Shown: positions 4,991-44,451 of the stretch, one piece after another
Numbering within the stretch: the stretch's first letter is position 1
Layout: every line of letters begins with the position of its first letter
DNA from: Heptranchias perlo
Lineage: Eukaryota
DNA: 64,000 nucleotides
Direction: 5' to 3'
NCBI RefSeq assembly: GCF_035084215.1
Contig: NC_090351.1
Span: 33,604,001 to 33,668,000 of the forward strand
The notes under the pieces: generated by a model
Told to the model about the DNA's origin: nothing
Databases searched by the model: none
The model's input: only the letters and a program-made list of their open reading frames with translations
Made by a program: the position numbers and the translations under genes

Positions 4991-5046
4991 CGTAGCATTA
5001 TAGACTGGGTTAGATTCTTCCTCTGTATGTGTTAATCCTTTCTTAC
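4991..5046 (-). CDS. Gene A candidate cytoplasmic exon 2 (GKKGLTHTEEESNPVYNAT), with NPxY motif
   Basis: tcattcttag acceptor and gtaaga donor. 56 nt, phase 1 to 0, open when joined to the TM exon. Same length and phase as gene B exon 53739-53794. Confidence 0.6.
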
Positions 5047-5660
5047 CTAAGAATGATACAGATATAGATTACAGCGACACGAGTATAAAAATGAATCCAT
5101 TACCCTGTATATGTTAATGAATACTGATCTACAGTGTGTTTTTGCAATTGCAACAGACAAATTTATTAATAAATACTATCTTTATAGCAGAGGTCAAATT
5201 GAGCAAATAAAATTGGACATATGACTGCAATATTAGCACACAAGCACTTAGAACAATCGTATGACCCTCCTCTGTTTTAATGGAGGCATTAACCCATTTA
5301 TTTTAAACATATTGGGGTAAATTTTCATCTTCCCTGCATGGGTGGCAATCTGCCGGAGCGAGTCGCCCGTCTTTTAAAGATTTTGCCCGATTTTCATTCC
5401 GTTGAAGCCAAATGAAAAGGTTTTGGAACAGTCAGGCAATTATCTGAAACTACTTCATCTGGAATCCTGTATCAAGTAAACTGCTACTTGCAATTGCGTT
5501 TGAACTCTTGGTACTGGTTTACTAATTTAATTTTAATAAAATTGAAACATAGCCTACGATGATTAAACATTGGTTTGAATGAAATTCAAATACATCAAAC
5601 TTAACTTTCCACCCTGGTCTGCTTGGAACGTCATATTTACATTGGCTGTTGCACACTTAC

Positions 5661-5713
5661 TTCTTGTATGTGCTGCATTGTATATTGTTCTCTTTCTATG
5701 GCTTTATTTAAAT
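5661..5713 (-). CDS. Gene A candidate cytoplasmic exon 1 (DLNKAIEREQYTMQHIQE)
   Basis: gatcctacag acceptor and gtaagt donor. 53 nt, phase 1 to 0, open when joined to the TM exon. Confidence 0.62.
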
Positions 5714-5770
5714 CTGTAGGATCAAGGCATATTCTTATTCATTGTTTAGCTTGACTACTGCTGCACCAGG

Positions 5771-6200
5771 TGTCAGCTGTGGCTCTGTGGTAGCACCCTT
5801 GCCTCTGAATTATAAGGTTGTGGGTTCAAGTCCCACTCAGAGACTTGAGGACTGAGGGAGTGCCTCATCTGTTGGCAGTGGCGTCTTTCAGATGAATTGT
5901 TAAACTGAGGCCCTGTCTGCCTTCTCAGAATGACATAAAATGTCACTGTTTTGGAGGGGAGTTCGCCGTGGTGTCCTGACCAATATTTATCCCTGAGTCA
6001 ACTTCACTAAAAAAAACAAATTAGGTGGTCCTTGTCACTTTGCTGTTTGTGGGACCTTGCTGTGCGCATATTGGCTGCTGCGTTTCCCTACATTACAACA
6101 ATGACTACACTTCAAAAGTACTTCATTGGCTGTAAAGTGCTTTGGGATGTCCTGAGGTTGTGAACGGTGCTATATAAATGCAAGTTCGTTCTTTCTTTTC
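5771..6200 (+). mobile_element. tRNA-derived SINE, DeuSINE/SacSINE1-like
   Basis: A-box-like (TGGCTCTGTGG) and B-box-like (GGTTCAAGTCCC) head. Tail GCTGTTTGTGGG...CTATATAAATGCAAGT recurs several times in the window. Confidence 0.8.
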
Positions 6201-6555
6201 TTTGTCTTTGCATCTAGCGCTGGTACTAGGCTCTGCCCGGTGGTGGGCCTGCCTGGGGTGACCCGAGCCATTTAGGCTGCTCAGGATCCTGCGACTCTCT
6301 AGAGGCCACGCAGAGTGTGGCCAGGAAAGCTGGCCCTTACCAAGCCACCAGTAGATAGGAACACAGGAATTTACTGAACTGGACAAGACCACTGCAGTCC
6401 ATCTGGGCAGTCCAAGTGTCCAGGAAATATCCCACGACAGCATAGCCCAAAGTTTATTTCATACTCTATTACAGTGGATGGAGAAACGGGGTAGTACTTG
6501 TGCTTTAACCTGTAAGCTCCTGCTTTACTTGAATCAAATTTGGAACTGTAAATTA

Positions 6556-6709
6556 GGTCAGGAATTTCCTCGGGGCTGCTCACTCTCGCTCTGCCGCCAT
6601 AACTTTGCCGGGAGCGTGGCAGAAACCCCAGCTTCCGCGGACTCTGCCGCACGCCTGACGAAGTTACGGCTGGTGGAGTGGGAGCGGCTCCGAGGGGAAT
6701 TCCCGGCCT
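6556..6709. mobile_element. Palindromic MITE-like element
   Basis: About 65-bp imperfect inverted arms (aggtcaggaatttcctcgg...ccgaggggaattcccggcct). Related element at 59556-59678. Confidence 0.6.
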
Positions 6710-6787
6710 CACTCTTCAGCTGGCCCGATTGCAAGCAGAGGTTTTCCTTTAAATTGGAATTGGAATTTTCAAAACTGTGCAACTTAC

Positions 6788-6894
6788 CAGCTGTGGTTTG
6801 CTTTCTGCATCTTGTGACAAAAATAGTAGCAACAAGGATCAGTACAATCAGAACTCCGAGCAAAGGTACCAGTATGATGGATAAATTTGTGGTG
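6788..6894 (-). CDS. Gene A transmembrane exon (TTNLSIILVPLLGVLIVLILVATIFVTRCRKQTTA)
   Basis: ctgtttccgtag acceptor and gtaagt donor. 107 nt, phase 2 to 1. About 22 uncharged hydrophobic residues followed by RCRK stop-transfer. Phase matches the stalk exon. Confidence 0.88.
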
Positions 6895-7659
6895 CTACGG
6901 AAACAGAAGAGTAGACAGTTTATTTCTCCAAAGTGTGGCTCGTTTTCATTCTCCGAAAGCTTCCCTTTTTCAATTTCCCAATTTCCTTCTCTCCCCTGTA
7001 ATTCTTAAAGCTCTGATATTTGCAAGGTGCAATTCCACAGGCACCGCCTACTGGCACCATGTACGTGGCCCACTGGCCAATTATCATCCATGAGCTTTGA
7101 TTGCGACTGTCAGCGGGCTATTCAGCTGCAGTAAGATCACAGATAACCCCGATTCTGTCCTCACTTAATATTCACATGAAAACTTTTCCAGCAGGTTGCT
7201 GCGTAGTGATTAGGAGAGGAAATCCTGAACAATCTTCCCCTCCCTAATATTAATATATGTGAATTTAGACCATTTCTCCATAGAAAGTATATAAGCATTG
7301 ACTCTTAAGAAGCAGCCCAAGTTGAACACACAACCATGTTACCATCACAACTGTGCCCTGGATCCCACCACACTAGTGAGCAATGGCAGGCAGATCAGCT
7401 AGTTTCTTTAAATAGCGTTGGTGAACTGTTCTTGTAAATGCATGTAGAGCACTCACCGTTGGACGTGGACCAATGCAGCCACATTTGATTGAGTGGTTTG
7501 CTTTGATCACAGTCAGAGATATTGAAAATACCTTGGCACCCAAATCATAACTGAGGACTGAAAAAGTGTTGGTGTGACACACAGGAGTGGCGTTCGGGCC
7601 GTGCCAATGCATGAGGCCCCGAGCGGATCCAGTGAAAGGACACCTACGCAGAGCTGCAT

Positions 7660-8000
7660 TATAGAATCATAGAACGAAGGAGGCCATTCGGCCCATTGCA
7701 GCTGTGTCAGTTCTTTGAAAGAGCTATCCAATTAGCCGCACTCCGAAGCCCTTTCCCCATAGCCTTGCAAATTTTTCACCTTCCCAATTCCCTTTTGAAA
7801 GTTATTATTAAATCTGCTTCCACCACCCTTTCAGGCAGTGCATTCCAGATCATAACAACTCACTGCGTAAAAATTTTTCTCCTCATCTTGTCTCTGGCTC
7901 CTTTGCCAATTGTCTTAAATCTGTGTCCTCTGGTTACCGACCCTTCCGCCACTGGAAACAGATTCTCCTTATTTACTCTATCAAAACCCATCATAATTTT
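7660..8000 (-). mobile_element. Old CR1 3' fragment
   Basis: Reverse complement of the CR1 RT C-terminus and 3' UTR with (ATTCT)n tail. Similar to 10885-11290 and 12345-12700. Confidence 0.75.
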
Positions 8001-8637
8001 GATCATCTCTGATCACCACTGCAGAGTGTCGATGAGTGAGATAATTACATTAATTACACATCAACCTTTGCTCTTTCTGTTCATTTCCCCTCCAAAAAGA
8101 AAATTATGCATTACTAGAAGAAAGAAAACGGCTTGAATTGTTGACTGTAATCCAGTCTGCTCACGTTTATGAAATAAATTGCTTGTGTTTTGTTCGTTTT
8201 TCTTTAACCTCAAAGTTTTGTTTTTGCCATAGAGCAGAAATCGATTTCAGTCTGAATTCAGCCTCTCCTGGGGTGTGCTGTTGTGTTATGTAACATTGAA
8301 ACTGCAGCACCATGCTTGAAAGAGGAATGAATGAGTCTTAAGGGTCGTTATCAGGGGTGAATGATAAGGAATAATACAACATCTACAGGTAATACTCTGT
8401 TCCAAGGGAATTTTAAGTTTTTCTTGAATGTGGCACATAATGCAGACCAGTGATGATAGTTAGTTGGTGTACTTTGCTTACTTTATTGCCTAATGGCAAC
8501 TAGCCAATGCCAGTGCACTTTTCGTACAACCAATGTCTAAGACGTCAAGCTTTAAAGTACCAATCTTTTGCTAAGTATTATTAGATCTGTGTGACTCAAA
8601 AAAGCTCGTAAAATTACAGATTTAAGACCTCAGCACT

Positions 8638-9150
8638 CGCCTTCTCACCCACTCCACTCACCCCCCGCCTTCTCACCCACTCCTCTCACCCCCCGCCTTC
8701 TCACCCACTCCTCTCACCCCCCGCCTTCTCACCCACTCCACTCACCCCCCGCCTTCTCACCCACTCCTCTCACCCCCCGCCTTCTCACCCACTCCTCTCA
8801 CCCACTCCTCTCACCCCCCGCCTTCTCACCCACTCCTCTCACCCCCCGCCTTCTCACCCACTCCTCTCACCCCCCGCCTTCTCACCCACTCCTCTCACCC
8901 CCCGCCTTCTCACCCACTCCACTCACCCCCCGCCTTCTCACCCACTCCTCTCACCCACTCCTCTCACCCACTCCACTCACCCCCCCACTCCTCTCACCCA
9001 CTCCACTCACCCCCCCACCTTCTCACCCACTCCTCTCACCCCCCGCCTTCTCACCCACTCCTCTCACCCCCCGCCTTCTCACCCACTCCTCTCACCCCCC
9101 GCCTTCTCACCCACTCCACTCACCCCCCGCCTTCTCACCCACTCCACTCA
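8638..9150. repeat. 28-bp minisatellite (CGCCTTCTCACCCACTCCTCTCACCCCC)n, about 18 units
   Basis: Tandem array visible directly, made of 14-bp half-units, with variant units. Confidence 0.95.
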
Positions 9151-9439
9151 TCCTCCCCGGTCACGGCTGAGGTGGGGGAAGGAGACAACGAAATAGCCGT
9201 TTTGCATCCAACTTTGAACTTTATTTATCTTCCTTTGTGAACTGCAGTAACAGATTAATTAGTCATTCATCGTATTGCTGTTTGTGGAACTTTGTCGTTT
9301 GCTGTATTTACCCATATGACAACAGTAACAACTGCACAATGTAGTTTATTCTATGTGAAGCACTTTGGGGTGTTTCTGAAACTTGATAAGGCACTATATA
9401 AATGCAAGCTCGCTCTTTCTTTCACTGATAGACAATATT

Positions 9440-9845
9440 TTTAAAAATCTCATCCTTGTTTTCAAATCTCTCCATGACCTTGCCCCTCCCTAGCTCAGTA
9501 ACCACCCCCTGCCCTACAACCCTTCAAGATCTCTGCCCTCCTCCAATCTGGCATCTTGCGCATCCCCGATTTTCTTCACTCCACCATTGGCCTTCAGCTG
9601 CCTCGGCCCGACATTCTGGAATTCCCTCCCTAAACTTATCTGCCTCGCCACCTCTCTCTTCTCCTTTAAGACGCCCCTTAAAACCTACCTCTTTGACTGA
9701 GCTTTTGGTCACCTGTCCTAATATCTCTTCATGTGTCTCAGTGTCAAATTTTGTTTGATAATCTCTCTTGTGAAGCGACTTGGGATGTTTTACCACGTTA
9801 AAAGTGCTATAGTAAAGGTGCACGTTGTTGTTGTTGTTGTTGTAG
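9440..9845 (+). mobile_element. L2-type LINE 3' end
   Basis: CTCTGGAATTCCCTCCCTAAAC-like 3' region and (TTG)n tail. Similar to 23215-23470 and 53150-53615. Confidence 0.75.
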
Positions 9846-10289
9846 TAGTAAATGAATCTGGACACTATGTTTCTTAGGTTGAAATGTTAATTGAATCTGT
9901 AGTCCTTAAAGTTTAATTAGCATACGGGTGACTAGCAGCAGTTTTTGATGAAAAAGACCTATCAAGAAAAACTTTTATTTTCTTCTCTTGTTACTATTGT
10001 TATATGGGTAAATGTGGTGAATATTTTGTATACAGTAAGGTCCCACGAACAGCAGTATGGTGAATGACCAGTTAACGATACTGCAATTCACAAAGGAAGA
10101 TAATTAAAGGTCAAAGTTGGATGCAGAGCAGCAAAAATAATCCTCACTGTGTTAATTGTACAATATATACTTCTGATGAAAGCAAAATAAACATACAGAG
10201 GTAATAATGACTCGAACAAACTTATATATATTATGTTGCTAGTGGCTCAGAAAACAACAGATTTTAACAATCTTGTTCACTGGTTAGAA

Positions 10290-10880
10290 ATCTCACCAAC
10301 TTGGACAGTGTGGTGGCTCACCACATTGAACCATCATTGTTCAGCACCACTCAATAACTCAATGCAGGTTGGACTTGCCAAGTGAGCCCAGATACCACCA
10401 TTTGAGGAGATATGTCCGTATTGGGATAGTTGTGTATCCAGCTATTGTACCGCTGTTCCGGATGGCCTCCAATCTGCTAGCGGACAGACCGACAAACAAA
10501 GCTTAAGCTCTGCCCATGCTTCCCGCGTAGTTGACTGCAACCTCTCTCCAAGATTTGGAAAACCGTTTCTGTTCAGTTTTCGGCTGCTTCCCCTGGGGGT
10601 GCCATCCTTGCTTGGTGGTGAACACAATCTGGTCCTTGCTGTTTTTGTTTGACAGCAAAGAATCTTTGGCATTTTGTACAATGAATGTTTGAACTGTTTA
10701 TCCAGTGTTCCCTTCTGATATATGGATTCAGAGAATTTAGCCTTGTGCTCAAGATGGCTGGCCTTCTTACCATTGTCTACTCCACTATGAGGTTACTGTT
10801 GCGATCCTTGCTGTTTTGGTTAGTTGTCATATTGCAGTCAGCTCTGTTAACTTTCCATATTTTCCTATTTTTTTGGCTAA
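10290..10880 (-). mobile_element. Heavily decayed LINE C-terminal remnant (Vingi/RTE-X-like, tentative)
   Basis: Stop-riddled minus translation resembling the W..L.R/WG..SPTC C-terminal motif. Similar weak remnants at about 18450-18780, 19050-19360 and 59290-59530. Confidence 0.3.
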
Positions 10881-10884
10881 GAGG

Positions 10885-11290
10885 TTAGTGACTGGGGTTG
10901 TTCTCCTTAGAGCAGAGAAGGTTAAAGGGAGATTTGATAGAGGCGTTCAAAATCATGAAGGGTTTTGATAGAGTAAATAAGGAGAAATAGTTTCCAGTGG
11001 TCGAAGGATTGGTAACCAGAGGTCGCAGATTTAAGGTAATTGGCAAAAGAACCAGAGGCAACATGAGGATTTTTTTTTTACACAGCGAGTTGTTATGATC
11101 TGGAATGCACTGCCTGAAAGGGTGGTGGAAGCAGATTGAATAATGACTTTCAGAAGGAAATTAGATTAAAATTTGCAGGGCTCTGGGGAATGAGTAGGGG
11201 AGTGGGACTAATTGTATAGCTCTTTCAAAGAGCCGGCACAGGAACGATGGGCCGAATAGCCTCCTTCTGTGCCATTCTATGATTCTATAT
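10885..11290 (+). mobile_element. Old CR1 3' fragment
   Basis: LFSLEQRRL.GDLIE-type coding remnant, 3' UTR and ATTCT tail. Confidence 0.8.
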
Positions 11291-12344
11291 GGAGCCCATC
11301 TCTCCCAGGTCAGCAATGAAGGAATATGCTTGTGAAGCATAAGTTGCACTTTCCTCTGATTTATTATTATTTATCATTAGTGAAAGTGAGCGGGTGAATG
11401 AGCACTCACTTCTAATCATGGAGTATTTACTCTTTGCAGCTCGATGGAGTGCTGGTATTTATTTTAGATTGCTCTAGCAACGAATTGGCATAGGTATGAT
11501 GGGCCGAATGGCTTCCTTCTGTGCTGTACACTTCAATGGTTCTACATGTTGAGCTGGTAAAATATCATTTAAACGGGTTTGAGGAGTTTTCACAAATCCA
11601 GTTGTGATGTGCTGAAACCTAACGACGAAGCAGCAGCGGAGAATGAGCAAAACACGTTTCACGCATCAAGACCTATATGTTAAATATTTCCCCTCAAAGT
11701 AGCTTCAAGGTTCATGTGGGAAAAGAGGGACTTGTTCCCATGTGAATGCTCAGGTCCTGTGTGAACTCACAATGAATATTGTTCAAATCCTTGATTCTAC
11801 CCTGCTGTTAGCCCAGAAAATTACTCTACCATATTATCAATGGCTAACTTGTTAGCTTCAACTTTGTTCATTTCAGTGTGCCAGTTGCCTCCTGGAGTTG
11901 GGTTGGAGTCAAGGATGCTACTGGGAGTTGAATTAGAGTCAGAAATGCCAGCAGGAGTTGCGTTCGGGATAGCCTGACACTGGGTTGGGTCACGCTGACG
12001 TCAGGAGTTGGATCAGGGTTAAGAATGACCGTTGGAAATGTTTCAGGTTCTTGGGTGACATCAGGGGTTAGGTTAGGTCTAGGCTAATGGGGAAGACAAG
12101 CTAATGAGGGGTTTGTGGCCACACCTCGCCCCCTCCCTGCTCCAAGCCACCACCATGTTCTGTCAGTGCAGTGTTCAAACTGTGATATTTGGCCCAGTTC
12201 CAGCAATACAGCCAGTTCTGCCGTGAATAAATAACTTCGTATTTTAGCTCAAGCTGAAGCATCCTCCATGTTTACATATGGATCAGCCTAAGGGCTCCTT
12301 TAGCAAGACAAGATCTTTTGCATCATTTCGCTTAAACTTTTAAG

Positions 12345-12700
12345 AATCATAGAATGATACAGCATAGAAGGAGGCCATTTGGCCCATCGTACTTGTGCCG
12401 ACTCTTTGAAAGAGCTATCCAATTAGATCCTTTCCCCATAGCCCTGCAATTCTTTATCCTTCAAGTATATATCCAGTTCCCTTTTGAAAGTTATTATTGA
12501 ATCTGCTTCCACCACCCTTTCAGTTAGTGTATTCCAGATCACAACTCACTGCGTAAAAAAAATTCTTATCTTGCCTCTGGTTCTTTTGCCAATTACCTTA
12601 AATCTGTGTCCTCTGGTTATTGATGCTTCTGCCACTGGAAACAGTCTATTTACTCAATCAAAACCCTTCATGATTTTGAACACCTTTATTAAATCTCCCC
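12345..12700 (-). mobile_element. Old CR1 3' fragment
   Basis: Reverse-complement match to 10885-11290. Confidence 0.75.
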
Positions 12701-12786
12701 TCAATGGGGAAATAACTGTAGCTGCTGGTAAATAATGGAAGATAGGATTGTTACCACTAACTCAGCACATAAACTGCTGTAGTACT

Positions 12787-13650
12787 TTTTTTTATTCATT
12801 CACGGGATGTGGGCATCGCTGGCAAGGCCAGCATTTATTGCCCATCCCTAATTGCCCTTGAAAAGTGGTGGTGAGCCGCCTTCTTGAACCGCTGCAGTCC
12901 GTGTGGTGAAGGTTCTCCCACAGTGCTGTTAGGTAGGGAGTTCCAGGATTTTGACCCAGCGACGATGAAGGAACAGCGATATATTTCCAAGTTGGGATGG
13001 TGTGTGACTTGGAGGGAAACGTGCAGGTGGTGTTGTTCCCATGTGCCTGCTGCCCTTGTCCTTCTAAGTGGTAGAGGTCGTGGGTTTGGGAGGTGCTGTC
13101 GAAGAAGCCTTGGCGAGTTGCTGCAGTGCATCCTGTGGATGGTACACACTTCAGCCACAGTGCACTGGTGGTGAAGGGAGTGAATGTTTAGGGTTCTGGA
13201 TGGGGTGCTAATCAAGCGGGATTCTTTGTCCTGGATGGTGTCGAGCTTCTTGAGTGTTGTTGGAGCTGCACTCATCCAGGCAAGTGGAGAGTATTTCATC
13301 ACACTCCTGACCTGTGCCTTGTAGATGGTGGAAAGGCTTTGGGGAGTCAGGAGGTGAGTCACTCACCGCAGAATACCCAGCCTCTGATCTGCGCTTGTAG
13401 CCACAGTATTTATATGGCTGGTCCAGTTAAGTTTCTGGTCAATGGTGACCCCCAGGATGTTGATGGTGTGGAATTTGGCGATGGTAATGCTGTTGAATGT
13501 CAAGGGGAGGTGGGTCGACTCTCTCTTGTTGGAGATGGTCATTGCCTGGCACTTGTCTGGCGCGAATGTTACTTGCCACTTACGAGCCCAAGCCTGGACG
13601 TTGTCCAGGTCTTGCTGCATGCGGGCACGGACTGCTTCATTATCTGAGGG
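12787..13650 (-). mobile_element. 5'-truncated LINE, same family as 3566-4612
   Basis: ORF 12835..13362 is nearly identical to ORF 3616..4356. Confidence 0.85.
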
Positions 13651-14269
13651 GTTGCTTAGACTCCCGGGCCCCTGTATTATCGTGTGCAAAAGCCTAAACC
13701 TCACTTTAAGCCTGATGCAATGAGCAGTTGGAAACGCAGGTAGGAAGTACCGAGTGTGCTCAGAACCTGTGAACCTCTGTCACAAGATCCCACATTTAAC
13801 TTAAATTACAGGGCCTCCCCATGATGCGCTGGAGTGTCTGATCAATTCTCTGGGTGCTGAGTGGCCATTTCCGTCCCAGCTGTTCCTTGGTCTCCAACAG
13901 CTGATGCTTCAAAAGGGACTTTGTACCCCATGGCTCTGAAAAAAATGGCATACATCAATGGCAACCCTTCATTGGCTGCTAGGGGTCAACTTTCTGGACC
14001 CCGCCTCTTTGGTGCTCCCAGTACATCGTGCGCTAAATGCCAGGCATGCCAGAGAAATATTGAAATGAGCTGACCTCATGTTATTGTGGGGCCGCAGGCG
14101 TATATTGAACTGGGACCGTCACAGAGTCTATCTTGTCAGTTACCCCTACCTATTGCAACAGTGACTACACTTCAAAAAGTACTTAATTGGTTGCAAAGTG
14201 CTTTGGGACGTCCTGAGGGCATGAAAGGCACTATATAAATGCAAGTCTTTCTCTCTTTCCTTCCTTCCT

Positions 14270-18808: not shown

Positions 18809-18869
18809 CTTTCATTTCTCCAGGTGATTGTTTTCTGAAGTTCATTGGGCTGTGTTGATGTTGTAAGAG
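18809..18869 (-). CDS. Gene A stalk exon (PLTTSTQPNELQKTITWRNES)
   Basis: gtttttacag acceptor and gtaata donor. 61 nt, phase 1 to 2, bridging V2 to TM exactly. Thr/Ser-rich. Confidence 0.8.
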
Positions 18870-22098: not shown

Positions 22099-22109
22099 AA
22101 ATAATCTTT

Positions 22110-24781: not shown

Positions 24782-25105
24782 GTTCAGAAATGTTCAGTTG
24801 TACAGGAACCATTTTGTCGTAGCCGGTGATGGTTATGCCACACCAGTAACGTCCCGCATCCTCCATCAATAGTTTGCTTATTGTTACGGAAAACACCCCA
24901 CTGATCTGGTTATCCGCAACAATTATCCTTCTGCTGTCGTTCACATTCTGTTTTTGAGTTCCAGCAATTACACTGCACGATTTCTTCTCTGTCCCCTTGC
25001 ACAAGTACTTCTCGTAGTTCTTGTAATATGGTACATGATACTGACATGCCACAGTGACAGCTCCTCCTAAAGTCCCATATACCTCTTTTGGCCCAGTTAA
25101 TCCAC
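24782..25105 (-). CDS. Gene A Ig V domain 2 (CD300/pIgR-like)
   Basis: cttgcag acceptor and gtaaga donor. 324 nt, phase 1-1. Motifs TGP, V.V.C.Y, KYLC.G....C (extra CD300/pIgR disulfide), FSVTI..L...DAG.YWCG. Confidence 0.93.
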
Positions 25106-27873: not shown

Positions 27874-28203
27874 CTTCAGGAACATTCAATTTGACAGAAG
27901 CCATTTCATCCTTGCCAACCTTTGCTATCCCACACCAATACCATCCTGCATCGTTGAGTGATAATTGTTCCATTGTTACAGAAAATACCCCACTGGTTTG
28001 GTTGTCCACAATGGACATTCTGTTGAATTCCTCTTGCTGTAATCTTCGAGTTCCAGCCATCACGGTGCATGAAAATCTCTGTGCTCCTTTACACCAGTAC
28101 TTCTCGAAATCCCTGTTACTTGGTATGCTATATTGACAACGGACGGTGATGGATCCTCCTAATTTTCCGGTCACCTCCCCTGGTCCTGTTACTCCGTATG
28201 AAC
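27874..28203 (-). CDS. Gene A Ig V domain 1 (CD300/pIgR-like)
   Basis: ttctaacag acceptor and gtaaga donor. 330 nt, phase 1-1. Motifs GSITVRCQY, KYWCKG....C, FSVTM..L...DAGWYWCG. Starts with the residual signal end GSYG. Confidence 0.95.
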
Positions 28204-33939: not shown

Positions 33940-34276
33940 AGGACTAGAACTAGGGGGCATAATCTTAGAATAAGGGGCTGCTCTTTCAAAACTGAGATGA
34001 GGAGAAACTTCTTCACTCAGAGGGTGGTGGGTCTGTGGAATTTGCTGCCACAGGAAGCTGTGGAAGCTACATCATTGAATAAATTTAAAACAGAAATCGA
34101 CAGTTTCCTCGAAGTAAAGGGAATTAGGGGTTACGGGGAGCGGGCAGGAAATTGGACATGAATTTAGATTTGAGATTAGGATCACATCAGCCATGATCTT
34201 ATTGAATAGCGGAGCAGGCTCGAGGGGCCGATTGGCCTACTCCTGCTCCTATTTCTTATGTTCTTATGTTCTTATG
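33940..34276 (+). mobile_element. Young CR1 3' fragment, variant without the duplicated 3' UTR module
   Basis: Near-identical to 2500-2720, then runs directly into the terminal module and (TTCTTATG)n. Confidence 0.9.
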
Positions 34277-34949
34277 AATAGTGCAATATACAGTTTATAC
34301 CATAAGTGAACAAGGCTTCATAATTCATGAGTGACGCAAGTGAATTAGGACGGTATTAATCAGGAATGTAGTAAGTTGTATATTCCACTTTGTGTTCTGT
34401 TGTTAGAAATGGTGCTGAGAAAATTTTGTTTCAGGTTTTTAAAAAAAGTTTTAACGTAGTTTACTATTAGCAAGGAGGGTGCATTAATATGCCCCATCAT
34501 ACCATGTGGGGTGCTTCACATCTTTTTTGGTGCAACTAGCCACCATCTTGAAAATGTCCTTACTAATGGTGAACATAAAAACATTGCAGCATTAAAGGAG
34601 TAGCAATATTGGATAGGATAAAAATAGATAAAGAGGAGGTACTTAAAAGGTTGGCAGCTCCCAAAGCAGAAAAGTCACCCGGTCCAGATGGGATGCATCC
34701 TAGGTTACTGAGGGAAATAAAGGAGGGAATTGCGGAGGCTCTGGCCACAATCTTCCAATGCTCCTTAGATATGGGGTGGTGCCGGAGAACTGGAGGATTG
34801 CAAATGTTACACCCCTGTTCAAACAAGGGGACAGGAGTAAACCCGGCAATTACAGGCCAGGTGGGGAAACCTTTAGAGACAATAATCTGGGACAAAATAA
34901 ATTGGCACTTGGAAAAGTATGGGCTAATAAATGAAAGTCAGCACGGATT

Positions 34950-35192
34950 GAGTCGGTGAGCGGCGGGAAAGAGCGAGACCAGAGCGGGGATAAAAACAGC
35001 GCGGAGAGAGCGAGAGTTCAGTCGGTGAGCGGCGGCAAAGAGCGAGACCAGAGCGGGGATAAAAACAGCGCGGAGAGAGCGAGAGTTCAGTCGGTGAGCG
35101 GCGGCAAAGAGCGAGACCAGAGCGGGGATAAAAACAGCGCGGAGAGAGCGAGAGTTCAGTCGGTGAGCGGCGGCAAAGAGCGAGACCAGAGC
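34950..35192 (+). repeat. About 3.5 copies of a 69-bp GC-rich monomer at the CR1 5' end
   Basis: AGTCGGTGAGCGGCGGCAAAGAGCGAGACCAGAGCGGGGATAAAAACAGCGCGGAGAGAGCGAGAGTTC, repeated almost perfectly. Confidence 0.95.
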
Positions 35193-35462
35193 TTACTCTG
35201 AGAGCGAGACTCTGAGACCAGCGGCAGAGTTCAGGGTGACGTCACCAGTCAGAAAGTGACGCGGCACAGGGGAGGCAGCTGATTGGCGAGTAGGTTCAGG
35301 TGAGTATTTCTACTGTTTTACTGTAAGTAAAGTAATAAGAAAGGGAAGGTCTGCAAGTTTTATAGCAGGTAGTGTTTTTTTTAGTGAACCTAGGTCCCTA
35401 GTATAGTTAACATTTTCTAATTTCAACGTAATTTAAAAGGGGTAACTAAGCTAAGGCAAGTC

Positions 35463-36413
35463 ATGGCAGCAGACCTCGCACCCGTGATCTGCCCCTCCTG
35501 CAAGATGTGGGAAGTCATGGACACTACCAGTGTCCCTGCCGACCATATGTGCAGGAAGTGTGTCCACCTGCAGCTACTGACCGATCGTATCTCGGAGCTG
35601 GAGCTGCGGGTGGACTCACTGTGGAGCATCCGCGATGCAGAGAAACTCGTGGATAGCACGTTTAGCGAGTTGGTCACACCGCAGGTAAAGGGTATACAGG
35701 CAGGAAGTGAATGGGTGACCACCAGGAAGAGTAAGAGGTGCAGGCAGGTAGTGCAGGGGTCTCCTGTGGCCATCCCCCTCTCAAACAGATATGCCACTTT
35801 GGATGCTGTTGTGGGGGATGACTTATCAGGGGAAGGCAGCAGCAGCCAACTTCCTGGCACCACGGGTAGCTCTGCTGCAAAGGCTGGGAGGAAAAAGAGT
35901 GGAAGAGCTATAGTGATAGGGGACTCAATTGTAAGGGGAATAGACAGGCGTTTCTGCGGCCGCAACCGAGACTCCAGGATGGTGTGTTGCCTCCCTGGTG
36001 CAAGGATCAAGGACGTCTCGGAGCGGCTACAGAATATTTTGGAGGGGGAGGGCGAACAGCCAGCTGTCGTGGTGCACATAGGCACCAACGATATAGGTAA
36101 AAAAGGGGATGAGGTCCTAAAAGCAGAATATAGGGAGTTAGGAGGTAAATTAAAAAATAGGACCTCAAAGGTAGTAATCTCAGGATTGCTGCCAGTGCCA
36201 CGTGCTAGTCAGAGTAGAAATAGGAGGATATTTCAAATGAATACGTGGCTAGAGGAATGGTGCAAGGGGGAGGGATTCAAATTCCTGGGACACTGGAAAC
36301 GGTTCTGGGGGAGGTGGGACCAGTACAAACCGGACGGTCTGCACCTGGGCAGGGCCGGGACCGCTGTCCTAGGAGGAGTGTTTGCTAGTGCTGTTGGGGA
36401 GGGTTTAAACTAA
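35463..36413 (+). CDS. CR1 ORF1p: C4 zinc finger/leucine zipper + SGNH/GDSL esterase domain, intact, 316 aa
   Basis: CPSC...CRKC, heptad leucines, IGDSIVR, VVHIGTND and DGLH motifs. Confidence 0.92.
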   Translation: MAADLAPVICPSCKMWEVMDTTSVPADHMCRKCVHLQLLTDRISELELRVDSLWSIRDAEKLVDSTFSELVTPQVKGIQAGSEWVTTRKSKRCRQVVQGSPVAIPLSNRYATLDAVVGDDLSGEGSSSQLPGTTGSSAAKAGRKKSGRAIVIGDSIVRGIDRRFCGRNRDSRMVCCLPGARIKDVSERLQNILEGEGEQPAVVVHIGTNDIGKKGDEVLKAEYRELGGKLKNRTSKVVISGLLPVPRASQSRNRRIFQMNTWLEEWCKGEGFKFLGHWKRFWGRWDQYKPDGLHLGRAGTAVLGGVFASAVGEGLN

Positions 36414-36496
36414 AGTGGCAGGGGGTTGGGAACCTGAGCAGGGAGACAGAGGAAAGCGTATCAGGAAGGGACAGAAGGTATGGAGTAATAGGTAAA

Positions 36497-39321
36497 GTGT
36501 TAAAAAAGGAAAAAGCAGGAACTAAGTGTCACAAAACAGATTTGAAAGTTCTTTATCTGAATGCACGTAGCATTCATAACAAAATGGACGAGTTAACGGC
36601 ACAAATAACTACGTATGGGTATGATCTTGTGGCCATTACAGAAACATGGCTGCAGGGTGACAACGATTGGGAATTAAATATGCCAGGGTATTTAACAATC
36701 AGGAAGGACAGGCAGGAAGGAAGGGGAGGTGGGGTGGCTATGTTAATAAAGGAAGGACTCACTGTAATACAGAGAAATGATATTGGGACAAACCATCAAG
36801 ATAATGAAACAGTTTGGGTAGAGTTAAGGAATAATAAGGGGAAAAAAACATTAGTAGGCGTAGTATATCGGCCTCCTAATAGTTGCAACTCTGCTGGAAG
36901 AAGTATTAATCAGGAAATAGTCGGGGCATGTAATAAGGGAACAGCTATAATTATGGGGGATTTTAACTATTATATTAACTGGACAAATCAAATTGGGCAG
37001 AGCAGCCTTGAGGAAGAGTTCATTGAGTGCATCAGGGATGGATTTCTTGAGCAGTATGTAACTGATCCTACAAGGGGGCAGGCAACCTTGGACCTGGTCC
37101 TGTGTAATGAGTCAGGATTAATTAATAACGTCCTAGTTAAGGATCCCCTTGGAACGAGCGAGCACAACATGGTTGAATTCTATATCCAATTAGAGGGTGA
37201 GAAGGTTGATTCTCAAACAAGCGTACTGAGCTTGAATAAAGGAGATTATGATGGTATGAGAGCGGAATTGATTAAAGTGGACTGGGAAAATAGTTTAAAG
37301 GGTAAGATGGTACATGAGCATTGGTGTTCATTTAGGGAGTTATTTTACAACATTCAAAATAAATATATTCCACTGAGGAAAAAAGGGTGTAAAAGAAATG
37401 ACAGCCATCCGTGGCTAAGTAAAGAAATCAAGGATAGTATCCGACTAAAAACAAGGACATATAAGGTAGCCAAACTTAGTGGGAGGATAGAAGATTGGGA
37501 AGTCTTCAAAAGACAGCAAAAAGTAACGAAAGGATTGATTAAGAAAGGGAAGTTAGATTATGAAAAGAAATTAGCAAAAAATATAAAAAACAGATAGCAA
37601 GAGATTCTATAGTTATATAAAAAGAAAAAGGGTGGCCAAGGCAAACGTAGGTCCTTTAGAGGATGAGACCGGGAAATTAATGGTGGGAAACATGGAGATG
37701 GCAAAAATGCTGAACAAATATTTTGTTTCAGTCTTTACGGTAGAGGACACTAAGAATATCCCAACAGTGGACAAACAGGGGGCTCTACGGGGGGAGGAGT
37801 TAAATACGATTAAAATCACTCAGGAGATGGTACTCAGTAAAATAATGGGACTCAAAGCGGATAAATCCCCTGGACCTGATGGCTTACATCCTAGGGTCTT
37901 GAGGGAAGTGGCAGTAGGGATTGTGGATGCTTTGGTGATAATTTTCCAAAATTCCCTGGACTCAGGAGAGGTCCCGGCAGATTGGAAAACTGCTAATGTA
38001 TTTTAAAAGGGTAGTAGGCAGAAGGCTGGAAATTATAGGCCAGTTAGCCTAACATCTGTGGTGGGTAAAATTTTAGAGTCTATTATTAAGGAGACAGTAA
38101 CGGAACATTTAGATAAGCATAATTTAATAGGACAAAGTCAGCATGGCTTTATGAAGGGGAAGTCATGTCTGACAAATTTGCTTGAGTTCTTTGAGGATAT
38201 AACGTACAGGGTGGATAAAGGGGAACCAGTGGACGTAGCGTATTTAGACTTCCAGAAGGCATTCGACAAGGTGCCACATAAAAGATTATTGCTTAAGATA
38301 AAAAATCACGGGATTGGGGGTAATATTCTGGCATGGGTGGAGGATTGGTTATCGAACAGGAGGCAGAAAGTTGGGATAAATGGTTCATTCTCGGACTGGC
38401 AACCAGTAACCAGTGGTGTTCCACAGGGGTCGGTGCTGGGTCCCCAACTCTTTACAATCTATATTAACGATTTGGAGGAGGGGACCGAGTGCAACATATC
38501 AAAATTTGCAGATGATACAAAGATGGGAGGGAAAGTAGAGTGTGAGGAGGACATAAAAAACCTGCAAGGGGATATAGACAGGCTGGGTGAGTGGGCGGAG
38601 ATTTGGCAGATGCAATATAATATTGGAAAATGTGAGGTTATGCACTTTGGCAGGAAAAATCAGAGAGCAAGTTATTTTCTTAATGGCGAGAAACTGGAAA
38701 GTACTGCAGTACAAAGGGATCTGGGGGTCCGAGTGCAAGAAAATCAACAAGTTAGTATGCAGGTGCAGCAGGTGATCAAGAAAGCCAACGGAATGTTGGC
38801 TTTTATTGCTAGGGGGATAGAATATAAAAACAGGGAGGTATTGTTGCAGTTATATAAGGTATTGGTGAGACCGCACCTGGAATACTGCATACAGTTTTGG
38901 TGTCCACACTTAAGAAAAGACATACTTGCTCTCGAGGCAGTACAAAGAAGGTTCACTCGATTAATCCCGGGGATGAGGGGGTGGACATATGAGGAGAGGT
39001 TGAGTAGATTGGGACTCTACTCATTGGAGTTCAGAAGAATGAGAGGCGATCTTATTGAAACATATAAGATTGTGAAGAGGCTTGATCGGGTGGATGCAGT
39101 AAGGATGTTCCCAAAGATGGGTGAAACTAGAACTAGGGGGCATAATCTTAGAATAAGGGGCTGCTCTTTCAAAACTGAGATGAGGAGAAACTTCTTCACT
39201 CAGAGGGTGGTAGGTCTGTGGAATTTGCTGCCCCAGGAAGCTGTGGAAGCTACATCATTAGATACATTTAAAACAGAAAGACCGTTTTCTAGAAGTAAAG
39301 GGAATTAGGGGTTATGGGGAG
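36497..39321 (+). pseudogene. CR1 ORF2 (endonuclease-RT), disrupted
   Basis: Relative to the copy at 1-2719: a +1 A near 37590, a deletion plus TAA near 38000-38006, and a small deletion near 39278. Confidence 0.9.
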
Positions 39322-41109
39322 CGGGCAGGAAATTGGACATGAAGCTGAGTTCGGATCGGTCAATGCCCTGTGGGTGGCGGAGAGGGCCCAGGGGCTGAGT
39401 GGCCGGGTCCTGCTCCTACTTCTTGTGTTCTTTAGATTTGTGGTTGGGATCAAATCAGCCATGATCTTATTGAATGGCGGAGCAGGCTCGAGGGGCCGAT
39501 CGGCCTACTCCTGCTCCTATTTCTTATGTTCTTATGTTCTTATTTGTTAAAGGAAAATTGTGTTTGACTAACTTGATTGAATTCTTTGATGAAGTAACAG
39601 AGAGAGTTGATGATGGTAGTGTGGTTGATGTTGCATATATGGACATTCAAAAGGCATTTGATAAAGTAGCACATAATAGATTTGTTAGCAAAATTAAAGC
39701 CCATGGGATTAAAGGGTCAGTGGCAGCGTGGATAAAAAATTGGCTAGGGGACAGAAAGCAGAGAGTAGTGGTGAATAGTTGTTTTTCAGACTGGAGGGAA
39801 GTATACAGTGGTGTTCCCAAGGGGTCAGTATTAGGACCACTGCTCTTTTTGAAACATATTAATGACCTGGACTTGAGTATAGAGGGTATCATTTCAAAGT
39901 TTGCAGATGACACGAAACTCGGAAATGTAGTACACAATGTGGAAGATAGTAATAGACTTCAGGAGGACATAGACAGACTGGTGAAATGGGCAGACACATG
40001 GCAGGTGAAATTTAACGCAGGGAAGTGTGAAGTGATGCATTTTTGTCGAAAGAATGAGGAGAGGCAATATAAACTAAATGGTACAATTTTAAAGTGGGTG
40101 CAGGAACAGAGACCTGGGGGTTCACATACACAAATCTTTGAAGCTGGCAGGACAAGTTGAGAAGGCTGTTAAAAAAGCAAATGCGATCCTGGGCTTTATA
40201 AATAGAGGCATAGAGTACAAAAGCCAGGAAGTTACGCTAAACCTTTATAAAATACTGGTTAGGCCTTAGCTGGGGTTTTGTGTTCAATTCTGGGCACCAC
40301 AGTTTAGGAAGGGTGTCAAGGCCTTAGAGAGGGTGAAGAAGAGATTTACTAGAGAGGTGCCAGGGATGAGGGACTTCAGTTATGTGGAGAGACTGGAGAA
40401 CCTGGGGTTGTTCTCCTTGGAACGGAGAAGGTTAAGAGGAGATTTGACAGAGGTGTTCAAAATCATGAACGGTTTTGACAGAGTAAACAAGGAGAAACTG
40501 TTTCCAGTGGAGGATTGGTTGGTAACCAGAGGACATAGATTTAAGGTGATTGGCAACAGAGCCAGAGGTGACATTTTTTACGCAGCGACTTGTAATGACC
40601 TGGAATGCACTGCCTGAAAGGGTGGTGGAAGCAGATTCAATAGTAACTTTCAGAAGGGAATTGGATAAATACTTGAAGGGAAAAAATTTACAGGGCTATG
40701 GGGAAAGAGTATGGGAATGGGACTAATTGGATGGCCTCCTCCTGTGCTGTACTTACTATAATATACTATGATATGATATGAACAATGCTGGACAGGAAAA
40801 GACCAGCTGGTCCATCCAGCATGATCCGCATAATTGTGATACCCGATAAAAGCCCAGGCCAATTTGGGGGAAAAAAAACTGGGAAATTCCTCTCCGACCT
40901 CCACTGGGTGATTGAAACTAGTCCAGGAGATCACTCCGGCCCTGATAGTTCTATGCAGTGCCTGTCTTTTTTACAAGGTGATCTCCGCCCCAGCCAGAAA
41001 CAGGTCCAGCTCTCGCTTGAAGAAATTCAGCGAATTGGCGTCCACCGCATGCGAAGTATTCAATTCATTTTGCCTTTCACAAGTTAGTCATAAGAAGTAT
41101 GGATACAAA

Positions 41110-42080
41110 GCTTCATGACTGTCTGACTCCTGACTTTGTCACAGCCTTGATCCAGACATCGACCCAAAAGCTTGAATGCCAGAGACCTGATCTTGACATT
41201 ACGGCAGCATTTGACCAAATATAGAGCCAAGGACCCCCTAGCAAAACTGAGGTCAATGAGGGCCAAAAGGAAAATCCTCCAGAGGCCGGAGTCATACCTG
41301 ACGCACAGGAAGATAGTTTTGATCATCGGAGGCCTATTATCGCAGCCCCTGGACCTTCCTGGTGGCATTCCTCAGGTAACGTCCTTGGCCCAACCATCTT
41401 CAACTGCTTCATCAATGATCTTCTCTCTGTCATAAGGTCAGGAGCGGGGCGATACGCTGACGATTCTACAGCGGTCAGCTATATTCACAACTCTTTTGAT
41501 AATGCCTAGAGCAGGACCTGGACAACATCCAAGCTTGGGCTGATGAATAGCAAGTAAGATTTTCACTACATAAGGATCATCTCCAACAAGAAAAGGCCCA
41601 ACCACCTCCCCCTGACATCAGCAAAGTAAGACCCTACCACCAACATCTTGGAGGCACCACTGACTAGAAAGGAACTACATCAGCCATATTAACACTGTGG
41701 CTGCAACTGCAGGATAGAGGTTGGGTATTCTGTGATGAGTGGCTCACCTCCTGACTTCCTCAAGACCTCGCCATCATCTACAAGGCTCCAGTCCAGGGTA
41801 TGATGGAATACTCACCACTTGCTTGGAAGGGTGCTATTGCAATAACAGTCTAGGAGCGTGACATCATCCAGGAATAAGCAGTCTGCTTGATTAGTGCTTC
41901 TATCACTGAGTTCAATATCCATCTCTTCCACCACCAACGCACTGTGGCTGCAGCATGTACTATTTATAGTTTGCACTGTAACAACTCACCAAGGTTAGTT
42001 CGACAGCACCTCTCAGCCCCATGTCTTCTACCCCTGAGAGAAACATGAGCAGCAAAGTAAGGGAAACACCATCACCTTCA
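41110..42080 (+). mobile_element. Decayed copy of the LINE family at 3566-4612
   Basis: Remnants such as atctacaaggctc..gtcc..ggatactcaccacttgc and cactgtggctgcag. Confidence 0.7.
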
Positions 42081-42099
42081 TGAACCCCTCCAAGACCCC

Positions 42100-42380
42100 T
42101 AATAGAGGTCTTTAAGATTATGAAAGGGTTTGATAGGGTAGACGTAGAGAAGGTGTTTCTACTTGCGGGGGAGGCCAGAACTAGGGGCCATAAATATAAG
42201 ATAGTCACTAATAAATCCAATAGGGAATTCAGGAGAAACTTCTTTACCCAGAGAGTGGTTAGAATGTGGAACACGCTACAACAAGGAGTAGTTGAGGTGA
42301 CTAGCATAGGTACATTTAAGGGGAAGCTAGATAAACATGAGGGAGAAAGGAATAGAAGGATATGTTGATGGGATTAGATG
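42100..42380 (+). mobile_element. CR1 3' fragment
   Basis: MKGFDRVDVEKVF...RRNFFTQRVVRMWN. Confidence 0.8.
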
Positions 42381-43764
42381 AATATCGTCAAATTCATCAT
42401 CGGAAAGAAGCTCTGCTCTTACCATTGCCTTCTCCTGCAGTAAGTGTTGTATTACTTTTGCTATATGGTGGAAAGTGGGCACTAGTCATTTCTGTTCCTG
42501 TGTAATCAAAGCAGGTGAGAAATTTCCAATCACATTGCGTTTGACAATTGCTTAATGTCCCAGGAATGATCAATAACCTGCTGACATCACCTAGCCCTTA
42601 GTTTCATATTTAATACAGTGTAATTGATTCACTGAACTAATAAATTCATCCGGGCTGAAAATCTGTAGTTCTCCTCCGCCGCTGTAATAGTGGCTTCTCA
42701 GTCACACGTTTGACCCCTGTCGGAATTCCCAGGGTCAGGTAATCCCTGTAGAGTGGGTGGGTGCCATGCCCCAGTATGGGTGCAGCTGGAGCATTGGTGG
42801 GAGGGCTGGAAATTGTGTCCTTGTCATTGAACCGTTGGGGTGGATTGGTGGCAGGTCCTGTGGCAGAAAGAAGTGTAAACTGAAGACTGGCCCCTTTTTC
42901 ACAGTGGTCCTTAGGCAGACTCACAAATCAGTGCACTAAAAACGGAGCTAATTTAAGAGTATTTTTTATTCGTATTGATCGCTGTGGGACTGGCTGATGT
43001 GAGAATTTTACCCATGTGATGGGCCCCATGTCTGCCCTCTAGAAAGTACTGTGCACCAAGAAGTATGTTGGGAGCTCCAAAGGTTGGAAGTTGAGCAGGT
43101 GAATCCATCCTGCCAGTCTTGCCTCCATCTGTGAAGTCCAATTTGAAGGGGCGAGTGCAGGAACTGCCCTTCCCCAGCCTCACCCCACAAACCCCAACAC
43201 TGCTGTAATGGGCCGAGAACCAGAGTAACAAGATCCATCTTTGCCTGCCCCAAGCAGTGCCCAAATACCCTGAAGACATCATGAATTTTTGGGGCCACCA
43301 ACTGTGCATCTAATGAGTACAAAAAACGTCCACAGAATCAGACTGAAAATGGAAAAGCTAGCAGGGTCTTGGAAAGCAGAGTATAAAAAATGGCATGAAA
43401 AGACCTACACTTTGCATGCACTTACCTAGTGAACTCATAACAACCTCGTCACTTAAATGTGTCTCAAAAGTGTTGCATGTCGTGATGAATGAAGCTGATA
43501 AACAAATAGCCAAGAAATGAATCTTTGTGATAAAAGCAGGCAAATGCTTAGTGCGTTCACATAATCCTGTTAATGCGTTTGTTAAAGTAACATGCCGAGG
43601 AATGTCATGATATTTTCTTAATCATTAATATACTAACATTGCTGTCATTTCTATGCTAATATTTTGTTAATATGCATAATATTCTCTGAATCTACTGAAT
43701 ATAAAAATACGCTGTGAAAATCAAGCTTTATAAAGAAAAAAAATCAACCTTCTTGGGCACATAA

Positions 43765-44175
43765 GAAAGAAAGAGACTTGCATTTATATAGCGCCTATCA
43801 CGGCTGTAGGATGCCCCAAAGCACTTTACAGCTAATGAAGTACTTTTGAAGTGTAGTCACTGTTGTAATATAGGAAACGCAGCAGCCAATTTGCGCACAG
43901 CAAGGTCCAACAAACAGCAATGTGATAATGACCAGATAATCTGTTTTTAGTGAAGCTGTTCGAGGGATAATTATTGGCCAGGATAACGGGGAGAACTCCC
44001 CTGATCATCTTCGAAACAGTGCCATGGGATCCTGCACATCCACCTGAGAGGGCAGATGGGGCCTCAGTACTGCACTGGAGTGTCAGCCTAGATTTTTGTG
44101 CTCAAGTCTCTGGAGTGAGCCCACAATCTATTGACTCAGAGGTGATCGAGCTACCACTGAGCCACGGCTGACACC
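43765..44175 (-). mobile_element. DeuSINE/SacSINE1-like SINE
   Basis: Reverse complement of the SINE tail and tRNA-like head (gctaccactgagccacggctgac). Confidence 0.8.
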
Positions 44176-44402
44176 TGTGATACATATATAGATACCCATG
44201 GACAAATAAAAACTACGTGGTCTGTCAAATACAAGATGTAGATTTTAAAAGAAAAACTCTTTTTTGCAAACACCTGAGGAGAAGGTTAATAAAGTAATTT
44301 CTCTCAAATCTGGATCAGGACTCGGATCAGTGAAACTCTGTCATAACAAGAGGTGCGTAATCCCAGTTTGTAATAAAAGTTCGATTGTCTTGGCTTCCTT
44401 AC

Positions 44403-44451
44403 CTGATAACGAAACAGTGATCAGGATCATAGTAAATTCAATGTTTTTCAT
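44403..44451 (-). CDS. Gene A leader exon (MKNIEFTMILITVSLS-G)
   Basis: aaacATG context and CAG|gtaagg donor. 49 nt, phase 1. Joins V1 to give a plausible signal peptide ending SLSGSYG. Confidence 0.8.

What the first reader, a model, noticed from the sequence alone, without database searches (positions are those of the whole stretch)
4991..44451. Two-V-domain pIgR/CD300-like receptor (gene A) with a candidate NPxY endocytic tail
Seen: leader, V1, V2, stalk and TM exons join in frame across about 38 kb, the TM is uncharged, and a downstream exon encodes SNPVY. Known: teleost pIgR has two V domains, skate MDIRs are CD300/pIgR relatives, and NPxY (LDLR NPVY) is an internalisation/PTB-binding signal. 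To my knowledge no clear pIgR orthologue is established in cartilaginous fish. Inference: gene A could be an Ig-binding, endocytic or transcytotic receptor rather than a standard inhibitory CD300.
Basis: partly seen in the sequence, partly recalled or inferred. Interest (0 to 1): 0.8.

Follow-up and report, generated by a model that had tools for sequence, protein, structure and literature searches.

The report
Shark CD300-like receptor lacking inhibitory motifs
This is a real, spliced shark gene for a two-domain immune surface receptor of the known CD300/MDIR family that has lost the inhibitory motifs its neighbours carry; it likely binds exposed membrane lipids and likely takes them into the cell, and it is probably not the missing shark antibody-transport receptor (pIgR).

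Summary
The gene is real. RNA contigs of one sample join V1, V2, stalk, TM, the NPVY exon and a last exon just outside the window, in frame (347 aa). RefSeq already lists it as "pIgR-like", wrongly fused to the next gene. It lies in a tandem CD300/MDIR cluster, which the scan had already noted on neighbouring DNA.
It is unlikely to be the pIgR orthologue. Trees reject V1 with pIgR D1 (p 0.007) and V2 with D5 (p 0.024). The tetrapod pIgR tail motif is absent, and the IL10-PFKFB slot, 4.7 Mb away, holds a different V gene. V1 is closest to CD300lf and keeps 8 of 10 residues of its calcium/phospholipid pocket.
The TM is uncharged, the proximal ITIM is degenerate and a stop cuts off the distal one. 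NPxY is kept in only 4 of 10 orthologues and never as FxNPxY. NPxY or YxxΦ at that tyrosine is kept in 6 of 8 sharks.
Best reading: a non-inhibitory lipid-capture receptor with a probable sorting tyrosine. Ig transport is about 8% likely.

The parts
44403..44451 (-). Leader (signal peptide) exon, 49 nt from ATG, phase 1
27874..28203 (-). V1 exon: CD300lf-like V domain with C-C' disulfide and calcium/phospholipid pocket residues
   Evidence: RNA contigs; PDB sequence search; AlphaFold model, mean pLDDT 91; Foldseek ranks 1-10 are CD300lf/IREM-1
24782..25105 (-). V2 exon: second V domain, sister to V1 (internal duplication in the gene A lineage)
   Evidence: RNA contigs; 51% identical to V1; V1 and V2 of all orthologues form one group, 94/90
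18809..18869 (-). Short Ser/Thr-rich stalk exon (61 nt)
   Evidence: V2-stalk joint in X1, X2, X3; contig positions leave no room for a further stalk exon
6788..6894 (-). Transmembrane exon, uncharged helix plus basic stop-transfer residues
4991..5046 (-). Middle tail exon (56 nt, phase 1 to 0), positional homologue of the middle tail exon of neighbours B, C and D
   Evidence: Joints in X1, X2, X3; same size and phase as gene B's exon
5000..5011 (-). Codons for NPVY. The gene continues outside the window in a last exon starting at G000:C30:33,602,050, with a degenerate ITIM and a TAG before a relic distal ITIM

Best explanation
Gene A encodes a spliced 347-residue type I receptor of the CD300/MDIR (pIgR-like) family with two V domains, an uncharged membrane helix and a tail without inhibitory motifs; it likely binds phospholipid head groups on dying cells, vesicles or microbes through a CD300lf-type calcium pocket and likely internalises them through the tyrosine of its NPVY exon, rather than braking the cell or transporting antibody. 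Shown: exon structure, splicing, family placement, loss of ITIM/ITSM, identity of pocket residues. Inferred: descent from an ITIM-bearing neighbour-like gene, lipid binding, use of the tyrosine as a sorting signal. In Cetorhinus, Chiloscyllium and Stegostoma that tyrosine carries NPxY and YxxΦ together, as LRP1 does; this shark keeps only NPxY.
For: Splicing. Family: best single-domain PDB match of V1 is mouse CD300lf (97.8 bits, against 47.9 for human pIgR D1), V2 likewise (83.0 against 35.8). Foldseek ranks 1-10 are CD300lf/IREM-1, at 38-47% identity. A rodent CD300 protein finds V1 as its best match in the genome (46%). Pocket: of the ten CD300lf residues named in PMC6166816, V1 keeps Y34, C36, C44, W89, K94, G96, D98 and M100, and differs at Q41 and R42. 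The Asp98 position is Asp in 20 of 20 orthologue V domains printed. Tail: the last exon is homologous to the neighbours' ITIM exon (tblastn E 4e-4). It reads ITYDMA where they read [VI]TY[AS]TV, and a TAG, also present in RNA contigs, precedes the relic IQYPTL. ITIM/ITSM patterns are absent in 8 of 10 orthologue tails. NPxY or YxxΦ at the NPVY tyrosine is present in 6 of 8 sharks. The tail exons are about as conserved among seven sharks (0.62, 0.58) as V2 (0.64), and more than the stalk (0.53).
Against: No binding or uptake was tested. NPxY is in 4 of 10 orthologues and FxNPxY, the form named as the PTB-adaptor signal in PMC3338440, in 0 of 10. Mustelus and both batoids have no tyrosine there, and Heterodontus has Phe. 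In this species the tyrosine has no YxxΦ. Asn-Pro also occurs in the middle exons of genes C and D, so it may be inherited and neutral. Both Scyliorhinus tails contain SLYKDL, which fits an ITIM. The G-x-D loop is family-wide, so it says little about A in particular. The branch joining the A lineage to tetrapod CD300 and other cluster genes is only 87/91 and also contains pIgR D5. RNA is one sample, tissue unknown.
Confidence: 0.5

Rival explanations
1. One reading: gene A is an Ig-binding endocytic or transcytotic receptor, the shark counterpart of pIgR.
For: Two V domains, like teleost pIgR (PMC9321927). V1 CDR1 shares Asn-Arg with pIgR D1 in 6 of 8 sharks. The cluster is on the same chromosome as the IL10-PFKFB block. 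No ITIM and an uncharged TM. Trout pIgR scores 99.9 bits over two stretches. Sharks have J chain, and two reviews state that no shark pIgR is known. Mammalian CD300LG is said to carry IgA2 and IgM across endothelium (recalled; one search found no paper showing it).
Against: AU tests reject V1 with D1 (p 0.0075) and V2 with D5 (p 0.024). V1 and V2 are sisters from an internal duplication. His32 and Arg34, important for Ig binding (PMC4786434), are Asp and Glu in V1, with Glu in 8 of 8 sharks. The tetrapod pIgR tail motif is in 70 of 81 pIgR-type hits and 0 of 10 A tails. The IL10-PFKFB slot holds another V gene 4.9 Mb away. DAD1, which flanks teleost pIgR, is on C3. Gene D and the IL10-linked V are closer to D1.
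Confidence: 0.08
2. Signalling-dead decoy or tether: the ectodomain binds ligand, and the tail is a decaying remnant with no essential motif.
For: Motif tyrosine lost in 4 of 10 orthologues. Batoid tails keep none of the shark motifs. Tail ends differ by lineage. A skate isoform lacks the TM (P0115).
Against: Shark tails keep invariant I-x-YD and FP-x-x-I blocks, and tail identity is close to that of V2.
Confidence: 0.2
3. The tail still signals through SH2 adaptors, or weakly inhibits, via its conserved tyrosines (YD and FP-x-Y-I) or by read-through into the relic distal ITIM.
For: Four tyrosines in the tail, and the YD pair is invariant in seven sharks. An 18-codon open relic with IQYPTL follows the TAG. 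SLYKDL in two catsharks and YNDM (YxxM) in Chiloscyllium.
Against: No ITIM, ITSM or YxxΦ pattern in the translated tail of this species. The other sharks' models end without a distal ITIM. No evidence of read-through.
Confidence: 0.17

Closest known systems
CD300LF / CLM-1 / IREM-1 (mouse PDB 6c74, 6e47; human 2nms) and two-V turtle 'CMRF35-like molecule 1' models (P0096, P0097)
   Same: V-domain fold with C-C' disulfide, about 45% identity, 8 of 10 pocket residues, uncharged TM
   Different: CD300LF has two ITIMs and an ITSM (PMC4415817, start of abstract); gene A has none. Q41/R42 differ. Tweety and EBP50 genes, recalled as neighbours of mammalian CD300, are on C25 and C26, not C30.
Modular domain immune-type receptors (MDIR) of clearnose skate
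   Same: Multigene cartilaginous-fish family with activating and inhibitory members related to CD300, TREM and pIgR (PMC3031540). Gene A lies in such a tandem cluster, and a little-skate orthologue exists (P0258).
   Different: A is neither activating nor inhibitory by motif.
Tetrapod pIgR (with FCAMR and FCMR)
   Same: Same V-domain superfamily; Asn-Arg in CDR1; same chromosome as the IL10-PFKFB block
   Different: Not D1- or D5-derived; lacks His32/Arg34, the tail motif and the locus
Teleost pIgR and zebrafish PIGRL
   Same: Two V domains; PIGRLs form clusters and are reported to handle phospholipids (PMC4384117, second-hand)
   Different: Not beside DAD1; trout pIgR is 33% identical and rank 17 by fold; no teleost pIgR was in the tree
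LDLR/LRP1 NPxY sorting signals
   Same: NPVY about 20 residues from the membrane; in three other sharks interleaved with YxxΦ, as in LRP1 (PMC3338440)
   Different: Glu or Asp instead of Phe two residues before the Asn; motif not fixed across orthologues

Membership tests
CD300/MDIR (pIgR-like) receptor family | V-set domain with second C-C' disulfide, closest to CD300 by sequence and fold | tested here: met
CD300/MDIR (pIgR-like) receptor family | Member of a tandem multigene cluster | tested here: met
   17 of 18 V matches lie at C30:33.57-33.91 Mb; an 18th cluster V was found
CD300/MDIR (pIgR-like) receptor family | Calcium/phospholipid pocket residues of CD300lf | tested here: met
   8 of 10 named residues identical in V1; binding itself untested
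CD300/MDIR (pIgR-like) receptor family | Direct orthology to a numbered skate MDIR | not tested
   No MDIR sequence obtained; paper not held
Mammalian CD300 (strict orthologue) | One supported clade with tetrapod CD300, and shared flanking genes | tested here: inconclusive
   Joint branch only 87/91 and includes pIgR D5; recalled flanking genes are on other contigs
Inhibitory CD300 (CD300A/LF type) | ITIM/ITSM in the translated tail | tested here: not met
   None in this tail; pattern absent in 8 of 10 orthologues; neighbours B, C, D have two each
Activating CD300 type | Charged TM residue and short tail | tested here: not met
   Uncharged TM in the 10 aligned orthologues; 66-residue tail
Tetrapod pIgR | N-terminal domain in the D1 clade, membrane-proximal domain in the D5 clade | tested here: not met
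   p-AU 0.0075 and 0.024
Tetrapod pIgR | D1 CDR1 residues His32 and Arg34 | tested here: not met
   Asp and Glu in V1; Asn30 and Arg31 are kept
Tetrapod pIgR | Conserved membrane-proximal tail motif S-[VI]-[GS]-S-Y-R | tested here: not met
   70 of 81 pIgR-type hits, 0 of 10 A tails
Tetrapod pIgR | Locus between the IL10 family and PFKFB2 (gene order recalled) | tested here: not met
   IL10 hit at 28.88 Mb and PFKFB at 28.16 Mb flank a different V gene; A is at 33.60-33.65 Mb
Teleost pIgR | Flanked by dad1 and lrrc24 | tested here: not met
   DAD matches on C3 and C5 only; lrrc24 not searched
Teleost pIgR | Groups with teleost pIgR in a tree | not tested
   No teleost pIgR sequence recognised among session proteins
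pIgR (function) | Binds and transcytoses polymeric Ig | not testable with these tools
   Needs binding and polarised-cell assays
FxNPxY endocytic signal | Phe two residues before NPxY, conserved | tested here: not met
   0 of 10; NPxY alone 4 of 10

The most novel reading that the evidence does not exclude
Gene A is a CD300-derived receptor that gave up its inhibitory motifs early in shark evolution, gained an LRP1-like NPxY/YxxΦ sorting tyrosine and a pIgR-like Asn-Arg CDR1, and serves as the cartilaginous-fish uptake or transport receptor for polymeric IgM, independently of tetrapod and teleost pIgR.
Probability: 0.08. Interest if true: 0.85.

Novelty: new member of a known kind. Interest (0 to 1): 0.35.

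Why it matters
How sharks move antibody into secretions is still described as open (PMC13337447; PMC4016189), so ruling candidates in or out has value. This analysis lowers gene A as the pIgR orthologue and points to two better ones: the unrecorded single-V gene in the IL10-PFKFB slot, and cluster gene D. If the best reading holds, sharks have a conserved non-inhibitory CD300-type lipid receptor beside inhibitory and activating relatives, and its tail records stepwise erosion of ITIMs. It also corrects a fused RefSeq model. The family and cluster are known, so the surprise is modest.

Tried and rejected
The Pro/Thr-rich frame at 12083-11871 as a stalk exon: rejected, because the contig goes from the 61-nt stalk straight to the TM. 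The NPVY exon as terminal exon by read-through of its donor: rejected, because it splices onward in all three runs. The 635-aa RefSeq model as one protein: rejected, because contigs run through the TAG into 3' UTR and the second half is gene C with its own leader. ITIM-like LVYSTVI at C30:33,593,254: it lies just upstream of gene C's leader and is followed by stops. A strict splice-site scan missed the last exon (weak acceptor); tblastn found it. No run was on record as RNA; RNA is inferred from GT-AG joints, and contig depth was not used for expression. The protein search with the IL10-linked V found nothing among 151 candidates of 192-2000 aa, which is weak evidence. Flowers 2021, Cannon 2006 and Kortum 2014 were not held; only their titles were seen in reference lists. 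The search for CD300LG Ig transport returned no paper with the gene name. The first tree finished only in quick mode. No complex prediction was run, because no shark Ig sequence was in hand and binding is not claimed. V2 was not folded.
Full report
1. Observation. The window is G000:C30:33,604,001-33,668,000. On the minus strand lie leader 44451-44403, V1 28203-27874, V2 25105-24782, stalk 18869-18809, TM 6894-6788 and a 56-nt exon 5046-4991 encoding SNPVY, with compatible phases. Logan contigs of three coded runs (one sample, one study, tissue unknown) join V1-V2 (2 of 3 runs), V2-stalk, TM-NPVY exon and NPVY exon-last exon (3 of 3 each) at GT-AG ends. The last exon starts outside the window at C30:33,602,050. 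The product is 347 aa and equals the first 347 residues of the RefSeq model P0001, named "polymeric immunoglobulin receptor-like [Heptranchias perlo]". That 635-aa model runs on into the next gene (C) and is a fusion artefact.

2. Context. Gene A is one of a tandem cluster: 17 of 18 V matches lie at C30:33.57-33.91 Mb. Neighbours B (upstream, in the window), C and D (downstream) each carry two ITIM/ITSM motifs in their last exon. The NPVY exon is the positional homologue of their middle tail exon; gene B's is also 56 nt, phase 1 to 0. A's last exon is homologous to their ITIM exon (E 4e-4 against D). Its proximal motif reads ITYDMA, and a TAG precedes an 18-codon relic containing IQYPTL. Contigs of X2 and X3 span the TAG without a differing letter. 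I infer that A descends from an ITIM receptor and lost the motifs.

3. Orthologues. A-type proteins occur in seven other sharks, a skate, a stingray and a chimaera. Orthology rests on the tree and on B-A or A-C order in fused models. Ten tails were compared. I left out the chimaera model (no tail) and two shorter batoid isoforms, which also lack NPxY. NPxY is in 4 of 10 and FxNPxY in 0 of 10. An ITIM pattern is in 2 of 10 (both catsharks) and ITSM in 0 of 10. At the same tyrosine 5 of 8 sharks have YxxΦ, and 6 of 8 have NPxY or YxxΦ; neither batoid has the tyrosine. Among seven sharks, identity to this species is 0.70 in V1, 0.64 in V2, 0.53 in the stalk, 0.62 in the NPVY exon and 0.58 in the last exon. 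So the tail is constrained in sharks, but NPxY itself is not.

4. Ectodomain. The best single-domain PDB match is mouse CD300lf: 97.8 bits for V1 against 47.9 for human pIgR D1, and 83.0 against 35.8 for V2. Whole pIgR chains score higher only by summing domains. An AlphaFold model of V1 (pLDDT 91) has CD300lf/IREM-1 at Foldseek ranks 1-10, pIgR from rank 11 and trout pIgR at rank 17. PMC6166816 (passages) names ten CD300lf residues for calcium and phosphocholine binding. V1 keeps eight, including Asp98, and differs at Gln41 and Arg42. Against this, V1 shares Asn-Arg with pIgR D1 CDR1 in 6 of 8 sharks. However, His32 and Arg34, implicated in Ig binding (PMC4786434, passages), are Asp and Glu.

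5. Trees. A quick tree of 104 domains (7 dropped as duplicates or poor) and a full tree of 70 chosen domains over 109 columns agree. V1 and V2 of all A orthologues group together (94/90), apart from pIgR D1 (97/93). They sit in a weaker group (87/91) with tetrapod CD300, sturgeon pIgR-like domains, other cluster genes and pIgR D5. Forcing V1 with D1 is rejected (p-AU 0.0075), as is V2 with D5 (0.024). Gene D groups weakly with D1 (82/87). Limits: few columns, and no teleost pIgR, TREM, skate MDIR or mammalian FCMR/FCAMR sequence. My reading of three reptile, bird and caecilian N-terminal domains as FCAMR-like is recalled.

6. Synteny. An IL10-family hit is at C30:28.88 Mb and a PFKFB gene at 28.16 Mb. 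In tetrapods FCMR, PIGR and FCAMR lie between these (recalled). Here that interval holds a separate single-V gene with leader and a lysine-bearing TM exon, for which grouping with D1 is not rejected (p 0.41). I read 200 kb of the interval directly; genome searches found no other V there. Gene A is 4.7 Mb from IL10, with a GNAI-type gene beyond the cluster. DAD1, which flanks teleost pIgR (PMC9321927, passages), is on C3. Tweety and EBP50 genes, recalled as CD300 neighbours, are on C25 and C26. The cluster thus matches none of the three loci exactly, though it shares a chromosome with the pIgR slot. The tetrapod pIgR tail motif is in 70 of 81 pIgR-type hits and 0 of 10 A tails.

7. Mechanism. 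Most likely (0.5): tandem V domains bind anionic or zwitterionic lipid head groups through a calcium pocket, the receptor sends no inhibitory or adaptor-coupled activating signal, and the membrane-proximal tyrosine sorts it into endocytic pits. Structure, splicing, pocket residues and motif loss are shown; binding and uptake are inferred. Rivals: decoy or tether (0.2), SH2 signalling by other tail tyrosines (0.17), Ig uptake or transport (0.08).

8. Literature. Searches listed no paper on this gene; the library lacks most subscription papers. Seen as passages: PMC4016189 and PMC13337447 (no pIgR known in cartilaginous fish), PMC3031540 (MDIRs), PMC4786434, PMC6166816, PMC3338440, PMC9321927, PMC4384117, and PMC10801876 (reference list only). 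PMC4415817: start of abstract in a listing. Flowers 2021, Cannon 2006 and Kortum 2014 were not held and may already treat shark members and synteny; no supplements were read. Earlier scan notes call the neighbouring genes MDIRs and mention A's short last exon; these are unreviewed.

9. Verdict. Observation confirmed, interpretation partly supported. A new member of a known family with an atypical tail; interest 0.35.

Noticed in passing
G000:C30:28,750,898-28,757,025 (+); L068:898-7025: Lone single-V receptor gene (leader, V lacking the B-strand Cys, TM with an internal Lys) between an IL10-family gene and a PFKFB gene, the tetrapod FCMR/PIGR/FCAMR slot. No protein of 192-2000 aa was found for it and no earlier scan note. 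It is a better positional candidate for the shark FCMR/FCAMR/pIgR relative; expression and tail are unchecked.
   Followed up: partly
G000:C30:33,565,100-33,572,800 (-); L022: Gene D (P0093): two V domains with pIgR-like C'' loops and an ITIM tail; groups weakly with pIgR D1 (82/87); expanded in catsharks and Mustelus.
   Followed up: partly
window 51462-60617 (-): Gene B (P0104, RefSeq 'CMRF35-like molecule 1'): single V, uncharged TM, ITIM plus ITSM; a standard inhibitory member, conserved to Mobula.
   Followed up: partly
G000:C30:33,601,879-33,601,936 (-); L039: An 18-codon open relic of the distal ITIM follows the TAG in the 3' UTR. Other sharks have Lys or Met at the TAG position and stop a few residues later, suggesting separate losses of the distal motif.
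   Followed up: partly
P0001, P0002, P0004, P0005, P0006, P0013, P0117: Database models fuse gene A with B or C in seven shark species, which inflates domain counts and yields 'pIgR-like' names.
   Followed up: yes
G000:C30:33,757,000-33,894,000 (-): Near-identical V exons repeat at about 17-kb spacing, four with identical scores: a recent tandem array or an assembly repeat.
   Followed up: no
G000:C30:33,942,800 (+); L050:4779: First exon of a GNAI-type G-alpha gene bounds the cluster upstream.
   Followed up: partly
window 740-2716 (+) and 36389-39254 (+): CR1-like LINE copies with long open endonuclease and reverse-transcriptase frames (659 and 402 aa) inside gene A's introns.
   Followed up: no
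P0096, P0097, P0099: Turtle CD300LF-like models also have two V domains with a full ITIM/ITSM tail, so two V domains do not by themselves indicate pIgR.
   Followed up: partly
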